In this document: piece by piece, positions 20,636 to 28,553 of the stretch | How the letters are laid out: the number at the start of each line of letters is the position of its first letter | How positions within the stretch are numbered: position 1 is the stretch's first letter | Sequence record: OR844650 | DNA length: 64,000 nt | Source of the DNA: Escherichia phage ECO103 4-12-1 | Reading direction: 5' to 3' (one strand) | The notes under the pieces: model-generated | The model's database searches: none | The model's input: only the letters and a program-made list of their open reading frames with translations | What the model was told of the DNA's origin: nothing | Translations under genes and position numbers: made by a program

Positions 20636-20905
20636 TTATAAAAATGTTAAATCTTCAGTACTTAATTGTGATAATTTACCATCATATTCTATTTCAACAT
20701 ATACATCTTGGTCATAAACAGCAACTACACGTTTAATAACTCCAACCTTCACGACATTCTTTTTGTAGTTGAACTCAACTGAACAACCAATAAGTTTATT
20801 TGATAGAATCTCACGTATTTGATTTGCATGGTCTTTTAGGATAGAATTAATAGATTTTTTCATAATATATCTATCATTCAAATATTTTTTAACTACATCA
20901 TGCAT
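20636..20905 (-). CDS. hypothetical small protein
   Basis: 89-aa ORF. Confidence 0.45.
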   Translation of the reverse strand: MHDVVKKYLNDRYIMKKSINSILKDHANQIREILSNKLIGCSVEFNYKKNVVKVGVIKRVVAVYDQDVYVEIEYDGKLSQLSTEDLTFL

Positions 20906-20910
20906 AATTA

Positions 20911-21669
20911 TTACCTTTTGAAACGATTGAATGAGTACTCATCTTTTTCTTTACGTAAGTATCTCATCCCACCACTTTGTGGAGTAGCGAGAGTTAAGTC
21001 ACCCGTCAAGAACTGACTATCAATCCAAATGCGATTACCGTAAATGAGTGGGTCTGTAACTGCTGTATGTCCACTAAAGACACAATGCACTCCATCTAAC
21101 TTAGGTGCATAATATGTATTATTAGTTCTACAATAATCGAATGTTTTTCTATCCCACAAGCACTTATCAATTATATCAGCACTAAGTGATTTTGTCCCAT
21201 TAACAAATCGTTCCCATGTTGTATATTCCAACGGAACTCCAGCATGAACTAACCCAATCTTCAATCCTCGGTGATTGATTTGGATAATCATAGGGAGATC
21301 CTTTAAGTACTGACGAAAGAATTGAATGCCTGTTCCTCCAACTTCATCAAGGAATTTATCACCACCATTACTTATCCAACAATGATACCAATCTCGAAGT
21401 GTTTCCGAATCAACGCACATCATCTCATGATTACCCGCAATCATGTAACGATTTTCTCCGAACAAAAATTCAAAAAGGAGCTTTGAATTTTGTTCTCCAC
21501 GGTCGATAATATCACCTACACTGAAAACATAATCATTGTGTGTAATACCAAATTCTTTCACTGTAGCATCCCATAGTTTACCATTACCATGCAAATCACC
21601 TACAATGTATAAATCTTTATCATCAGGTACAGTTACTTCTAAGAAGTGTTTCATTATTACTCCAACCAT
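20911..21669 (-). CDS. Ser/Thr protein phosphatase (PPP-family metallophosphatase)
   Basis: GDLHGN, GDIIDRG and GNHE motifs. Confidence 0.8.
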   Translation of the reverse strand: MVGVIMKHFLEVTVPDDKDLYIVGDLHGNGKLWDATVKEFGITHNDYVFSVGDIIDRGEQNSKLLFEFLFGENRYMIAGNHEMMCVDSETLRDWYHCWISNGGDKFLDEVGGTGIQFFRQYLKDLPMIIQINHRGLKIGLVHAGVPLEYTTWERFVNGTKSLSADIIDKCLWDRKTFDYCRTNNTYYAPKLDGVHCVFSGHTAVTDPLIYGNRIWIDSQFLTGDLTLATPQSGGMRYLRKEKDEYSFNRFKR

Positions 21670-21908
21670 ATAATATTAGTGTGTTTAGTAACTTGTGTTC
21701 CAGCAAAAGAACCATCTTTAAGATAAGTATTAATTTTAAAACGCCATTCACCACCACTAATATACATATCAGTAATAATATACTTTCCATACCCTCTGGA
21801 GTTTATTAATCGTACTTCTTGACCAATATATTTTGGCTTCAGATCATTTATAAAATCATCAGCCAAAGACATAAGATATCGCAAATGTGATAAGTCAGTG
21901 TTGAACAT
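21657..21908 (-). CDS. hypothetical small protein
   Basis: 83-aa ORF with KYIGQEV signature shared by several small ORFs. Confidence 0.45.
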   Translation of the reverse strand: MFNTDLSHLRYLMSLADDFINDLKPKYIGQEVRLINSRGYGKYIITDMYISGGEWRFKINTYLKDGSFAGTQVTKHTNIIWLE

Positions 21909-22123
21909 TATTTCTTTCTCTTATATTTGTTAATAATATCTTGGGTAAGTGAAATAAAAATATATACTAATGTTACAGGCCAAATAATAGCCATCAGTGC
22001 TGCTGTTTGGAGATTCATGATAATCATGATTTCATCTTTAAAACAACCCCAATTAAGTACTAGAAAGTTGGTTATAAATGTAACAAATGCTACAAAACCA
22101 TATATTGCAAAAAATGTTATCAT
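21908..22123 (-). CDS. small membrane protein
   Basis: 71-aa ORF with two hydrophobic helices. Confidence 0.45.
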   Translation of the reverse strand: MITFFAIYGFVAFVTFITNFLVLNWGCFKDEIMIIMNLQTAALMAIIWPVTLVYIFISLTQDIINKYKRKK

Positions 22124-22125
22124 AA

Positions 22126-22455
22126 TTATTCCTCATCATCCACTAAAACAAGATAATCCAAACTTAACTCGGTATCTATGTAACAATCACAATTCAAGTA
22201 CTCAATTTCAGCACCTATAGTTCTCCCATTCTTAAATATCTCAATGATTTTCATTCTAGTATTGGGATTAATGTGTTCAATGTCGTATTCGTATTCAGGG
22301 TCAATATACTCACTTGTCATACGTTTGATGTATTGTTCCGAATATCGTACAGTTTTACCTATAAGATCATTACTCAACGTCTGATAAAAATCATCTTGAA
22401 TTTTGAATAATGACCTATAAAAAATATTATGTTGAATTAGTGGTTTCATTGACAT
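22126..22455 (-). CDS. hypothetical protein
   Basis: 109-aa ORF. Confidence 0.45.
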   Translation of the reverse strand: MSMKPLIQHNIFYRSLFKIQDDFYQTLSNDLIGKTVRYSEQYIKRMTSEYIDPEYEYDIEHINPNTRMKIIEIFKNGRTIGAEIEYLNCDCYIDTELSLDYLVLVDDEE

Positions 22456-26342: not shown

Positions 26343-26597
26343 TCAATTATCTAGAACATCCACTATCAAACAAGCTTCAATAACGAAACAATCATCTAAT
26401 TCAAAGAGTAATTGATAGTCATCAGAAAACTTCACTTTAGTAATGTAAGCACTTTCAATTCCACCACTATGATAAGAACTATATAAAATACATTTACCTG
26501 TATATTCCTCACGGATACGACTAAATTCTTCATATAAATGAGTAATAAACGTATCCGCAGTTTTGTTGTAGTATTTTAGGTCACTTACTGTGCTCAT
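26343..26597 (-). CDS. hypothetical small protein
   Basis: 84-aa ORF with EEYTGKCI signature. Confidence 0.45.
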   Translation of the reverse strand: MSTVSDLKYYNKTADTFITHLYEEFSRIREEYTGKCILYSSYHSGGIESAYITKVKFSDDYQLLFELDDCFVIEACLIVDVLDN

Positions 26598-26811
26598 TAA
26601 CTTTTCCTACTCCAAATCGCTTGGAGATTTTCACAAGTACAGATTCATCACAACGAATACTAGCAGTATCATTGGATGAACTGTACTTTAATGGGGTCCA
26701 CTGTAATTGAGATTCTTCTAGGAACTTGATACATCTGAAATAATCTTTCAAGGAAAGAAATTTAACTACTGACATATCCTGAACAATACTATGCTGAACT
26801 TCAACTTTCAT
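26581..26811 (-). CDS. hypothetical small protein
   Basis: 76-aa ORF. Confidence 0.4.
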   Translation of the reverse strand: MKVEVQHSIVQDMSVVKFLSLKDYFRCIKFLEESQLQWTPLKYSSSNDTASIRCDESVLVKISKRFGVGKVNEHSK

Positions 26812-26820
26812 ATGAACTCC

Positions 26821-27078
26821 TTATAGTGGGTCAAATTTATTTTCACGTTTCGATGTATAGCGAGTTACATCATGTATTCTCGGCTTAACACCTTTTGGTT
26901 TCCTTTTCTTCTTGTATTCAGTACTACTACATCCGAAGGTATTCTCGATTCGTTTCTTACTTATCTTCACACCTTTCATTGAGCGTTTGTGCTGTAATTC
27001 ATCGATTTCTTCTTGTATTTTCCTGAACTCAGTCGGAGAAAGGGAACCGTCATTTTTATACTTAGGTTTAGCCATCAC
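26821..27078 (-). CDS. small basic protein
   Basis: 85-aa ORF, K/R-rich (KKKRKPKGVKPR). Confidence 0.45.
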   Translation of the reverse strand: MMAKPKYKNDGSLSPTEFRKIQEEIDELQHKRSMKGVKISKKRIENTFGCSSTEYKKKRKPKGVKPRIHDVTRYTSKRENKFDPL

Positions 27079-27105
27079 TTCTCCTTGTGCTTAGGCTAGA
27101 TAGTA

Positions 27106-28248
27106 CTAAAAATCCTTTAGTACAATTTTCATGTATTTTATAAGAGTCTCTTTGTAATCAACTTTCTTATTGTTATACATTGCAAAGGCCAAGCCCTGAC
27201 GATTCAGTTCATTAGTTAAACACTCCTGAACCTTCATTGCGAATTCCTTTCGCTCCAAGTGCTTGTGTTCCTTGACGAAGCTTTCTACTTCATCTTGTAA
27301 TGCATTATAGCACGAAAATACCAATTGTTCCATTCTTAATATCTTTTGCATAGCATATTCATCAGTACTGAACAATTGTTTTAAATCATCACTTGAACCA
27401 TTTAATACTGCTTCATATAAATGAGAATCAATAATAATACTATCTTTTGTAAGATGTAATGAACTGTACCAGTCAGTCTTTATTTTACACATTGTCCCAT
27501 TATTTAGGATGCACACAAAACCCTCAATATCAAGCATTTTATGAACTTCCTCCACGCTTTCACGGAAGGTATTTCGTACCGGAAAAGTGTGATGAATATC
27601 TTTTCCAGTCATATTAGTACTGTACTGTGCAAGACATGGAAACTTATCACGTAGTGCTTTACCACATAGCAACTCACCACTCACACGATGACGAACGTTC
27701 AGTACAAACAGTTGTTCTACCTGATATGGTAATACAATTCGGTACTCTGGGCTTGTATACTCCATATTAACTGTGTAACCTAAACGTTCCGCTTCGTCGA
27801 TGTACTGATACAAATTCTGGTTCTCGTTAATAAGTCGAGTACTGTTAATCGCATGGTCAGAATACAATGCAGTATGTGATTTACAACGAATCTCACCATC
27901 ATTATCACGGTAAGTACTGATAATCGAACCATCCAACTTAGGCATCACTACCGCAATGTCATCGCATGTGGTGTTAGCAGGGAACATTGTAGCAGGATTC
28001 TCGTAAGCATTGAAGAACTTTTTCATTGTACGTGCTGCACAACGTATCATTTCACCTTCTTCATCAATTTCCCACATAGAGCCACGGGTTTCCAACGCAT
28101 TTGGTTGCATGAAATCAGTGTATGATGCTAGACGATAACTGAATACACGATACGTGCCACCAGCAGGACTTTTATGATCCACATAAAAGAATGCATCGTT
28201 TGTATTACATAAGTGCATTAAATCTTCATATATTTGCAAAAGGGTCAT
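27106..28248 (-). CDS. rnlA: RNA ligase 1 (T4 RnlA-like)
   Basis: Motif I PKLDGS (KxDG), motif IV-like EGFV, motif V KIKTDWY; 380 aa; 1 kb from the kinase/phosphatase gene. Confidence 0.8.
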   Translation of the reverse strand: MTLLQIYEDLMHLCNTNDAFFYVDHKSPAGGTYRVFSYRLASYTDFMQPNALETRGSMWEIDEEGEMIRCAARTMKKFFNAYENPATMFPANTTCDDIAVVMPKLDGSIISTYRDNDGEIRCKSHTALYSDHAINSTRLINENQNLYQYIDEAERLGYTVNMEYTSPEYRIVLPYQVEQLFVLNVRHRVSGELLCGKALRDKFPCLAQYSTNMTGKDIHHTFPVRNTFRESVEEVHKMLDIEGFVCILNNGTMCKIKTDWYSSLHLTKDSIIIDSHLYEAVLNGSSDDLKQLFSTDEYAMQKILRMEQLVFSCYNALQDEVESFVKEHKHLERKEFAMKVQECLTNELNRQGLAFAMYNNKKVDYKETLIKYMKIVLKDF

Positions 28249-28553
28249 TTTATTACCTCTATATCTACATCAGTTCCATAATATGATATTAATCCATCAT
28301 CAGATTCACACTGAATAGACAACTCAGATTCATAGTATGTTACTTTATTCACTGTTAGTACTTGTTCTTCAATTACTCCAGAAAAATAATTCATCTCACG
28401 TACACGAACTTTAGTTCCTTTAGGTAGTTCATCTGAGATTTTTCGAACAAGATCATAAGCAGCCTGTTCAAGTGTGTACAGTAATTGTAATCTATCTTGA
28501 ATATTCATATTATTTCCACCAACTGGTATCACGTCCATTAGACAAAGATTCAT
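28245..28553 (-). CDS. hypothetical small protein
   Basis: 102-aa ORF. Confidence 0.45.
   Translation of the reverse strand: MNLCLMDVIPVGGNNMNIQDRLQLLYTLEQAAYDLVRKISDELPKGTKVRVREMNYFSGVIEEQVLTVNKVTYYESELSIQCESDDGLISYYGTDVDIEVIK

What the first reader, a model, noticed from the sequence alone, without database searches (positions are those of the whole stretch)
20636..28553. Dispersed family of about 85-105-aa proteins sharing a (E/K)(K/E)Y-x-G-(K/R)-x-V signature
Several small ORFs carry a similar central signature: 21657..21908 (LKPKYIGQEV), 24340..24594 (TTKYKGIRV), 24591..24851 (EEKYLGRNV), 26343..26597 (REEYTGKCI), 56927..57235 (EEKYAGRKV), plus weaker matches in 20636..20905 and 22126..22455 (KLIGCSV, DLIGKTV). 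This could be a third, older and more diverged paralog family scattered among the enzyme genes. It is weaker evidence than the two tandem arrays.
Basis: seen in the sequence. Interest (0 to 1): 0.4.

Follow-up and report, generated by a model that had tools for sequence, protein, structure and literature searches.

The report
Diverged small-protein paralog family in jumbo phage
About nine small genes scattered among the RNA/DNA-repair enzyme genes of a jumbo E. coli phage are real but very diverged copies of one gene, each probably a long helix joined to a small SH3-like barrel; their function is unknown and this kind of gene family is ordinary for large phages.

Summary
The window is a 121Q/PBECO4/G17-type jumbo coliphage (Asteriusvirus). 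All seven ORFs and their motif strings are present on the minus strand. The motif is far commoner than chance (strict form 3 observed, 0.02 expected) and always lies at residues 28-48 of 83-109-aa proteins.

Profile-profile tests used orthologs that are 31-57% identical, from phages A4, Turkey5 and TH47. They link all seven ORFs and add two members, 26022..26336 and 30129..30410. In leave-one-orthogroup-out tests, 8 of 9 rank first of 56 (p = 3e-8 to 4.5e-4). 26343..26597 is the weakest (p = 1.2e-3).

The genes are restricted to this phage group and have no Pfam family. They are unusually variable between related phages: lost, fused, or only 31-43% identical beside near-identical neighbours. 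Function is unknown; variable host-interaction or anti-defence proteins is my inference. This is a new member of a known kind, of modest interest.

The parts
21657..21908 (-). Family member, 83 aa, and hub of the family (KPKYIGQEV).
   Evidence: Leave-one-orthogroup-out hhalign: rank 1 of 56, P = 95%, p = 3e-8. Pairwise profile p = 1e-6 to 22126, 5.7e-5 to 24591 (57 columns), 9.7e-5 to 26022. It is not a sticky sequence: 1 of 47 background pairs has p<0.01, against 7 of 9 family pairs. Orthologs: 42% identity in phage A4, 57% in Turkey5. Absent from TH47.
24591..24851 (-). Family member, 86 aa (EEKYLGRNV); the protein that was modelled.
24340..24594 (-). Family member, 84 aa (TTKYKGIRV), tandem neighbour of 24591.
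   Evidence: LOO p = 1.9e-5, rank 1. p = 3.8e-4 to 56927 and 4.5e-4 to 21657. phrog_11429 is its second-best PHROG hit, E = 0.021. The TH47 chimera joins 24591 aa 1-23 to 24340 aa 22-84 at a shared ACTnnnTTAGAA. Orthologs: 33% in A4 (KYKDTYV) and 40% in Turkey5 (KKYVGKRV).
56927..57235 (-). Family member, 102 aa (EEKYAGRKV), the dispersed copy about 30 kb away inside another paralog array.
   Evidence: LOO p = 6.9e-6, rank 1. LOO HMM 21.4 bits, E = 1.8e-6. Belongs to phrog_11429, E = 3e-33. Present in only 19 phage records. Replaced by unrelated DNA in TH47. No homolog outside the phage group among 1.84e9 representative proteins.
22126..22455 (-). Family member, 109 aa (NDLIGKTV).
   Evidence: LOO p = 1.1e-5, rank 1. 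p = 1e-6 to 21657 and 2e-4 to 26022. Its A4 ortholog (31.5% identity) is hit by the 4-seed core HMM at E = 1e-3.
26022..26336 (-).
   Evidence: Top non-seed hit of the core HMM among 1,725 ORFs (13.5 bits, E = 0.006). Its A4 ortholog (37.5% identity) is hit by the core HMM at E = 3.5e-6. LOO p = 5e-6, rank 1.
20636..20905 (-). Family member, 89 aa (NKLIGCSV).
   Evidence: LOO p = 7.2e-5 over 73 columns, rank 1. p = 3e-4 to 22126 and 8.5e-4 to 26022. Not reached by the 4-seed core HMM (E = 1.1-1.8). Motif K[LI][IV]G.xV is kept in orthologs down to 34% identity.
26343..26597 (-).
   Evidence: LOO rank 3 of 56, p = 1.2e-3. Linked mainly to 21657 (p = 2.7e-4). Failed the first LOO HMM (rank 10). 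Its A4 ortholog (32% identity, KYINKRV) scores E = 0.04 with the core HMM. Absent from TH47.
30129..30410 (-). Probable new member, 93 aa (FVYLGSDIF).
   Evidence: LOO rank 1, p = 4.5e-4. p = 8.3e-4 to 21657. Its TH47 ortholog (41% identity) scores E = 0.007 and its A4 ortholog (33%) E = 0.016 with the core HMM.
28245..28553 (-).
   Evidence: A2 family HMM 12.0 bits, E = 0.02, against a best decoy of 11.1 bits. hhalign p = 3.9e-4 to 24340 over 81 columns. p = 8e-4 to the family profile lacking 56927.
31646..33791 (-). Tandem array of small ORFs with the same layout: 31646..31936, 31933..32319 and five clear paralogs in 32382..33791. Possible distant branch; not established.
   Evidence: The five form a BLAST family. 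Their HMM does not reach the candidates. The merged family profile hits the array at p = 6e-4 to 2e-3. A Turkey5 array member (KDYFIGKHV) scores E = 0.012 with the core HMM. 31933 carries HYIGKSL and 32382 carries LYIGKSI.

Best explanation
These ORFs are a real but highly diverged paralog family, restricted to this phage lineage. In the window there are about nine small proteins of 83-109 aa. They sit in and around the RNA/DNA-repair gene cluster of an Asteriusvirus jumbo coliphage.

Each is probably built the same way (modelled for one member only): an N-terminal alpha-helix of about 25-45 residues, then a four- to five-strand SH3-like beta-barrel. The shared signature ([DN][LF]xx[KE][YL]-x-G-[KRC]-x-[VI]) is structural. 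It forms the C-cap of the helix, a glycine turn and the start of the first strand.

The family grew by local duplication. 24340 and 24591 are still tandem, eight of the nine members lie within 10 kb, and one copy sits 30 kb away. It then diverged until only the helix-plus-junction module is recognisable by sequence.

The genes turn over fast between closely related phages. They are lost, fused by in-frame recombination between neighbours, or present as 31-43% identical alleles beside 92-100% identical flanking genes.

Shown: homology, the architecture of one member, lineage restriction and variability. Inferred with low confidence (about 0.3): they are non-structural accessory proteins that bind host or defence-related targets through the barrel, with the helix used for docking or oligomerisation.
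For: Homology:
- The motif is enriched and fixed in position.
- Conservation is at the protein level, with free synonymous variation.
- An independent profile, phrog_11429 (the family of 56927), is the second-best PHROG hit of 24591 (E = 0.017), 24340 (E = 0.021) and 21657 (E = 0.18), out of 38,880 profiles.
- A 4-seed HMM searched against 1,725 six-frame ORFs (all of TH47, 50 kb of G17, and the window) finds only genes of this neighbourhood.
- That HMM also hits unselected 31-43% identical orthologs in phage A4: the 26022 ortholog at E = 3.5e-6, A4 6965..7225 at 9e-7, and the 22126 ortholog at 1e-3. In Turkey5 it hits T5 9018..9275 at 1e-4.
- Orthogroup hhalign: 14 of 66 family pairs at p<1e-3, against 3 of 648 background pairs.
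- Leave-one-out: rank 1 of 56 for 8 of 9 members, p = 3e-8 to 4.5e-4.
- The N-terminal parts stay similar with the motif excluded (p = 1.7e-4).
- TH47 carries an in-frame chimera of the two tandem members, joined at a shared T-x-L-E codon microhomology.

Fold:
- AF2 pLDDT rises from 57.9 (single sequence) to 76.3 (family MSA).

Variability:
- 5 of the 13 window genes missing from TH47 are family members (Mann-Whitney p = 1.3e-4).
- A4 orthologs are 31-43% identical beside neighbours that are 96-97% identical.

Context:
- Rnl1, PNKP, a metallophosphatase, DNA ligase and PTH2 are confirmed by Pfam.
- The members are not mentioned in the main text of the phAPEC6 virion proteome paper (PMC7247149).
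Against: - Pairwise similarity is marginal: best BLAST E = 0.005 in a 139-protein database.
- hhalign probabilities are only 20-95%.
- The C-terminal beta parts show no residual sequence similarity (p = 0.3). With the motif deleted, leave-one-out HMM ranks are poor.
- Only one member was modelled at usable confidence, so a shared fold across members has not been shown directly.
- The rise in pLDDT could owe something to the near-identical orthologs in the MSA.
- h-x-G-[KD]-x-V at the first strand is a common feature of KOW- and CarD-type barrels (my own knowledge), so part of the signal is a fold signature.
- There is no evidence at all on expression timing, binding partner or phenotype. The sigma-70 promoter scan shows no enrichment.
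Confidence: 0.72

Rival explanations
1. The signature is only the generic first-strand entry motif of SH3-like, KOW or Tudor barrels. On this view the ORFs are unrelated, or only anciently related, small-barrel proteins that resemble each other through fold constraints, and are not a paralog family of this phage lineage.
Against: The family HMM finds nothing elsewhere in the roughly 600-gene, 352-kb TH47 genome. Similarity extends into the N-terminal helix, outside any barrel motif. Eight of nine members cluster within 10 kb. Two are tandem and recombine in frame in TH47. No member matches Pfam KOW, CarD, Tudor or DUF1653.
Confidence: 0.12
2. The reader's seven ORFs are an arbitrary visible subset of a much larger helix-plus-barrel superfamily. 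That superfamily would fill most of the 20-34 kb region: at least 15-20 genes, including 28245, 23752, 29782, 31646, 31933 and the 32382..33791 tandem array.
For: Borderline links: 24340-28245 p = 3.9e-4 over 81 columns, 24340-31646 p = 2.9e-4, 30129-23752 p = 1.1e-3. The family profile reaches the tandem array at p = 6e-4 to 2e-3, 31933 at 8.7e-4 and 28245 at 8e-4. A Turkey5 tandem-array member scores E = 0.012 with the core HMM. These ORFs have similar length, layout and C-terminal endings.
Against: None of these links survives correction for about 700 tests. The tandem-array HMM does not reach the candidates. The A2 HMM scores for 28245 and 31933 are no better than the best decoy.
Confidence: 0.35
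3. Chance: a short motif recurring in an AT-rich proteome, with no biological relationship.
For: A single 7-of-9 match somewhere among all protein pairs of the window is expected by chance (my estimate). The motif was defined after looking at the data. With the motif deleted, leave-one-out ranks are unimpressive.
Against: Motif counts against shuffles. Constant position of the motif in proteins of the same size. An independent PHROG profile cross-hits members. Unselected diverged orthologs are hit by the core HMM. Background-calibrated profile-profile excess. Genomic clustering.
Confidence: 0.03

Closest known systems
SH3-like small beta-barrel superfold (Tudor, KOW, CarD/CdnL N-terminal RNAP-interacting domain, EF-P/eIF5A domain I)
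   Different: No sequence-level membership: there are no Pfam hits and no PDB sequence hits (E >= 0.12). Foldseek E-values are not significant. These proteins carry a long N-terminal helix directly fused to the barrel. Nothing here shows binding to RNA polymerase, nucleic acid or methyl-lysine.
Uncharacterised small phage barrel proteins (BFVD entries; DUF1653, DUF7246)
   Same: They are the best BFVD structural neighbours (E = 0.037-0.2, TM 0.4-0.56). They are small phage proteins of 55-105 aa, also of unknown function.
   Different: Sequence identity is 6-20%, E-values are not significant, and no member hits the DUF1653 Pfam model.
Paralogous gene arrays of Rak2-like/Asteriusvirus jumbo phages
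   Same: The same genome holds clear tandem paralog families of 10, 8 and 5 members. Paralog sets are reported for the related phage CBB: 22 ORFs (PMC5259590).
   Different: This family is far more diverged. BLAST cannot cluster it and PHROGs splits it into separate per-gene phrogs. It is interspersed among enzyme genes rather than forming one uninterrupted array.
PHROG phrog_11429 (unknown function)
   Same: 56927..57235 is a full-length member (E = 3e-33). 24591, 24340 and 21657 have it as their next-best hit.
   Different: The other members are assigned to separate narrow phrogs (38615, 37322, 29135, 33398, 29519, 31355). 26343 has no phrog hit at all. PHROGs therefore does not recognise the family as one.

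Membership tests
   14 of 66 family pairs at p<1e-3, against 3 of 648 background pairs. Leave-one-orthogroup-out rank 1 of 56 for 8 of 9 members, p = 3e-8 to 4.5e-4; 26343 is rank 3 with p = 1.2e-3.
   83-109 aa. Gly at residue 28-48, a relative position of 0.30-0.52 along the protein. The helix-then-strands layout is seen in the model of one member.
   N-terminal parts: yes (Mann-Whitney p = 1.7e-4). C-terminal parts: no (p = 0.3). Some profile alignments span 57-84 columns. Motif-deleted leave-one-out HMMs are weak.
   Only two structure jobs were allowed and both were used on 24591. No pairwise structure-comparison tool was available.
SH3-like small beta-barrel fold | Barrel of 4-5 antiparallel strands matching solved SH3, Tudor or KOW domains | tested here: met
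KOW (PF00467), CarD_TRCF_RID (PF02559), DUF1653 (PF07866) sequence families | Pfam model match at or above the gathering threshold | tested here: not met
   No such hit for any of 10 proteins even at E <= 1. The only barrel-type hit is Spt6_S1 for 22126 at 15.5 bits, against a cut-off of 27.5.
CarD/Mfd/PcrA-type RNA-polymerase-binding Tudor domains | Binding to the RNA polymerase beta subunit | not testable with these tools
   Only fold-level resemblance. No sequence link.
phrog_11429 | Significant HMM match | tested here: inconclusive
   56927 E = 3e-33 (met). 24591 E = 0.017, 24340 E = 0.021, 21657 E = 0.18. The other members have no hit.

The most novel reading that the evidence does not exclude
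The family could be a rapidly diversifying set of host-target or anti-defence binders embedded in the phage's RNA-repair island (Rnl1, PNKP, phosphatase, PTH2). New specificities would arise by duplication, by hyperdivergent allele exchange and by in-frame shuffling of the helix and barrel modules between paralogs, as in the TH47 chimera. The SH3/Tudor-like barrel might dock on a host machine such as RNA polymerase or a tRNA-targeting defence nuclease.
Probability: 0.15. Interest if true: 0.55.

Novelty: new member of a known kind. Interest (0 to 1): 0.3.

Why it matters
It merges about nine 'hypothetical protein' genes, which PHROGs and annotators treat as unrelated ORFans, into one family with a predicted architecture. 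This slightly reduces the dark matter of a 350-kb phage genome.

It also points experiments at one target class. These genes are among the most variable between otherwise near-identical therapeutic-candidate coliphages. That is the usual behaviour of host-range and anti-defence determinants.

If they turn out to be ordinary accessory proteins with redundant roles, the result is only a tidier annotation.

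Tried and rejected
1. Homologs outside the phage group.
- phmmer of 56927 against 1.84e9 representative proteins found only itself plus two spurious 28-aa stretches.
- The word-indexed search found one cluster.
- tblastn against 50,697 phage records found only Asteriusvirus-type phages.
- A family-alignment search returned only orthologs of the seeds.

2. Pfam and PDB sequence searches gave nothing significant.

3. An HMM of the clear five-member tandem array, used as an independent probe, did not reach the candidates.

4. Leave-one-out HMMs with the motif deleted gave weak ranks of 2-111 out of 130.

5. The first hhalign run gave P = 99.9 for 24340 vs 24591. I rejected it as an artefact, because both MSAs contained the TH47 chimera. 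Redone with single sequences, p = 0.03 (matrix); with orthogroup profiles, p = 3.7e-3.

6. 'Sticky hub' explanation for 21657: rejected.

7. DNA-level conservation, such as a regulatory or recombination site imposing the peptide motif: rejected, because synonymous codons vary.

8. 'Constant N-module, hypervariable C-module' reading: not supported. Ortholog divergence is similar in both halves (46% vs 43% identity, Wilcoxon p = 0.28).

9. The sigma-70 promoter scan showed no enrichment.

11. 34713..35006 (EYKGNTV) and 889..1158 (TVGCV, plus a beta-hairpin similarity to 21657 at E = 0.005) were considered as members. Profiles did not support them.

Full report
**Source and setting**

The window matches Escherichia phage vB_EcoM_G17 and Sharanji at 99.4% identity over 20000-29000. 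It matches 121Q, PBECO4, phAPEC6 and related phages at 97-99%. It is therefore an Asteriusvirus jumbo coliphage of about 350 kb. Of 138 ORFs in a greedy gene call, 132 are on the minus strand; 24340..24594, dropped by that call, was added back to give the 139 proteins used below. GC content is 30-35%.

Pfam confirms the 'enzyme genes' among which the candidates sit:
- ATP-dependent DNA ligase, 17359..18777
- PTH2-like peptidyl-tRNA hydrolase, 19988..20407
- CxxCxGxG zinc-finger protein, 20398..20625
- metallophosphatase, 20911..21669
- polynucleotide kinase-phosphatase, 25077..26009
- T4-type RNA ligase 1, 27106..28248

**The observation**

All seven ORFs and the quoted peptide strings are present. 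The motif is not a chance feature. The strict form [EK][EK]Y.G[KR].[VI] occurs 3 times against 0.02 expected. [EK]Y.G..[VI] occurs 7 times against 1.04 expected. [YL]IG[CKQ].V occurs 5 times against 0.07 expected (500 shuffles). In all family members the Gly is at residue 28-48 of an 83-109-aa protein. Codons at the conserved positions vary synonymously, so selection acts on the peptide.

**Is it homology?**

Simple tests are marginal. The best pairwise BLAST E-value is 0.005-0.007 in a 139-protein database, although the top hits of 21657 are mostly other candidates. A leave-one-out HMM ranked 21657, 24591, 56927 and 24340 first of 139, but not 26343. With the motif deleted, the ranks fell to 2-111 of 130.

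Evidence that does not depend on that selection was therefore sought.

1. PHROGs places each ORF in its own narrow phrog. Even so, phrog_11429, the family of 56927, is the next-best hit for 24591, 24340 and 21657 out of 38,880 profiles.

2. I fetched the whole genome of a more diverged relative, TH47. A 4-seed HMM searched against 1,725 six-frame ORFs found only genes of this neighbourhood above noise. These were 26022, the TH47 orthologs of 30129, 26022 and 20636, and then 22126.

3. Two further lineages, phages A4 and Turkey5, carry syntenic orthologs at only 31-57% identity. The 4-seed HMM contains none of them. It hits the A4 ortholog of 26022 at E = 3.5e-6, an unselected A4 gene at the position of 24591 at 9e-7, the A4 ortholog of 22126 at 1e-3, and the Turkey5 gene at the 24591 position at 1e-4.

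4. hhalign gives p<1e-3 for 14 of 66 family-family pairs (0.07 expected). Only 3 of 648 family-background pairs reach that level (0.65 expected), so the p-values are calibrated on this proteome.

5. A merged family profile was built leaving out one orthogroup at a time. It ranks the omitted group first of 56 for 8 of 9:
   - 21657: p = 3e-8
   - 26022: p = 5e-6
   - 56927: p = 7e-6
   - 22126: p = 1e-5
   - 24591: p = 1.5e-5
   - 24340: p = 2e-5
   - 20636: p = 7e-5 over 73 columns
   - 30129: p = 4.5e-4
   - 26343: rank 3, p = 1.2e-3. It is beaten only by extra members that exist in A4 and Turkey5 but not in the window.

6. 21657 is a true hub rather than a sticky sequence.

7. With the motif excluded, the N-terminal parts still resemble each other (p = 1.7e-4). 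The C-terminal parts do not (p = 0.3).

**A natural experiment**

TH47 has one gene where the window has the tandem pair 24591 and 24340. It consists of residues 1-23 of 24591 (100% DNA identity) joined in frame to residues 22-84 of 24340 (about 88% DNA identity). The junction is at a shared ACT-nnn-TTA-GAA (T-x-L-E) just upstream of the motif. Thirty of 31 phage records carry the full 24591 gene, so the TH47 state is a derived deletion between neighbouring paralogs. It keeps the helix-junction-barrel order. This fits the two genes being equivalent modules, although 6-7 nt of microhomology would also allow illegitimate recombination.

**Fold**

AlphaFold2 on 24591 alone gave pLDDT 57.9, with the motif region below 50. 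With a 24-sequence family alignment (A2: nine window members plus orthologs) it gave pLDDT 76.3 and pTM 0.60. Residues 11-70 reached 82-88. The elements are helix 2-26, Gly28, and strands 30-33, 38-48, 53-62 and 65-73.

The motif is thus the helix C-cap, a Gly turn and the entry to the first strand. The G-[KR]-x-V part resembles the first-strand signature of KOW- and CarD-type barrels (my own knowledge). This raises the rival that the motif is a fold signature rather than evidence of close paralogy. Several findings argue against that rival: no hits elsewhere in a 352-kb genome, the helix similarity, the clustering, and the tandem pair and its chimera. I keep it at 0.12. The Gly is not absolutely required: the A4 orthologs of 24340 and 26343 have D and N there.

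**Evolutionary behaviour**

The family is restricted to this phage group. Its members are over-represented among the window genes that are absent or most diverged in TH47: 5 of the 13 absent genes, Mann-Whitney p = 1.3e-4.

- 21657 and 22126 lie in a 1.85-kb segment (20920-22773) that also holds the phosphatase and is missing from TH47.
- 56927 and 26343 are absent from TH47; the 56927 slot holds unrelated DNA.
- In A4, the orthologs of 26343 and 26022 are 32-37% identical, while the adjacent 26581 and 26821 genes are 96-97% identical.
- Divergence is similar in the N- and C-terminal halves, so a 'constant N, variable C' model is not supported.

**Function**

Nothing was shown directly. The genes are annotated as hypothetical proteins and are not mentioned in the main text of the phAPEC6 virion proteomics paper. 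My inference, at about 0.3 confidence, is that they are non-structural accessory proteins that bind host or defence components. It rests on their small size, a fold that commonly serves as a binding module, their lineage restriction, their rapid turnover, and their position in an RNA-repair island.

**Extent of the family**

28245..28553, 31933..32319, 31646..31936 and the clear tandem array 32382..33791 share the layout and give borderline scores. None survives multiple-test correction. A larger superfamily is possible (0.35) but not established.

**Verdict**

Membership is corrected as follows:
- Add 26022 and 30129.
- Treat 26343 as the weakest member.
- Upgrade 22126 and 20636.

This is an ordinary kind of thing for a jumbo phage, a diverged paralog family of small barrel proteins. 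It had not previously been recognised as one family. Interest is modest.

Noticed in passing
window 24340..24851; TH47 (MT446416) 35825..36082: TH47 has a single in-frame chimeric gene: aa 1-23 of 24591 joined to aa 22-84 of 24340. It lacks the 240 bp at window 24537-24777. The junction is at a shared ACTnnnTTAGAA. The N-terminal 69 nt are 100% identical to the window, while the rest is about 88% identical, which suggests mosaic recombination.
   Followed up: yes
window 20920..22773: This 1.85-kb segment carries the metallophosphatase (20911..21669), 21657..21908, a small membrane protein (21908..22123), 22126..22455 and the start of 22455..23084. It is absent from TH47 with a clean junction, but present in A4 and Turkey5.
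   Followed up: partly
window 26022..26597 versus 26581..27078: In phage A4 the orthologs of 26022 and 26343 are only 32-37% identical, while the immediately adjacent genes 26581..26811 and 26821..27078 are 96-97% identical. The boundary between hyperdivergent and conserved DNA is sharp, which suggests allele replacement or diversifying selection.
   Followed up: partly
window 55583..55774 and 55752..55973: These two adjacent small ORFs (63 and 73 aa) look like another undetected paralog pair (hhalign p = 9e-5, 32 columns). BLAST clustering does not find them.
   Followed up: no
window 31646..33791: A five-member tandem array (32382..33791) plus 31646..31936 and 31933..32319. All are about 90-128 aa, with an N-terminal 'TYK.LY' helix followed by Y/L-I-G-K-S-[IL]-type strands. 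It may be a distant branch of the same superfamily. A Turkey5 member scores E = 0.012 with the core HMM.
   Followed up: partly
window 889..1158: An 89-aa ORF with TVGCV at residue 26-30. Its segment ELRFQITTYNDGRF resembles EWRFKINTYLKDGSF of 21657 (BLAST E = 0.005). The two similarities are not in one register, and profiles do not support membership.
   Followed up: partly
window 47198..61606: Two large, clear paralog families (10 and 8-9 members, about 110-200 aa) are interleaved in the 47-62 kb region. 56927..57235 sits between members of the two.
   Followed up: no
window 22455..23084: A 209-aa protein with an N-terminal membrane segment, a K/E/V-rich middle and a C-terminal Ser/Asp-rich low-complexity tail (SSSSSDSCSYDSSSSDSSSSSGSCD). 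It has no Pfam hit.
   Followed up: no
window 19988..20625: A PTH2-like peptidyl-tRNA hydrolase (E = 2e-5) and a 75-aa CxxCxGxG zinc-finger protein (sub-threshold hits to Anti-TRAP and the DnaJ central domain) lie next to the Rnl1, PNKP and phosphatase genes. Together they look like an RNA and translation repair island.
   Followed up: partly
window 30103..30122 and 25047..25073 (minus strand): Two strong intrinsic-terminator-like hairpins on the coding strand, after 30129..30410 and after the PNKP gene. Terminator-like sites are enriched in 19500-31000 (12 found, 3.7 expected). Sigma-70-like promoters are not enriched.
   Followed up: no
L011 (phage A4) 8298..8627 and 7777..8058; L012 (Turkey5) 9772..10104: Related phages carry additional family members with no counterpart in the window (KKYVGTKA, RDKYYGKPI). 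Merged-profile p-values range from 1.2e-5 to 1e-3 for A4 8211..8627, 1.9e-4 to 2.7e-3 for T5 9772..10104, and 4.4e-4 to 3.4e-3 for A4 7777..8058 where it is listed. Family content therefore differs between lineages.
   Followed up: partly
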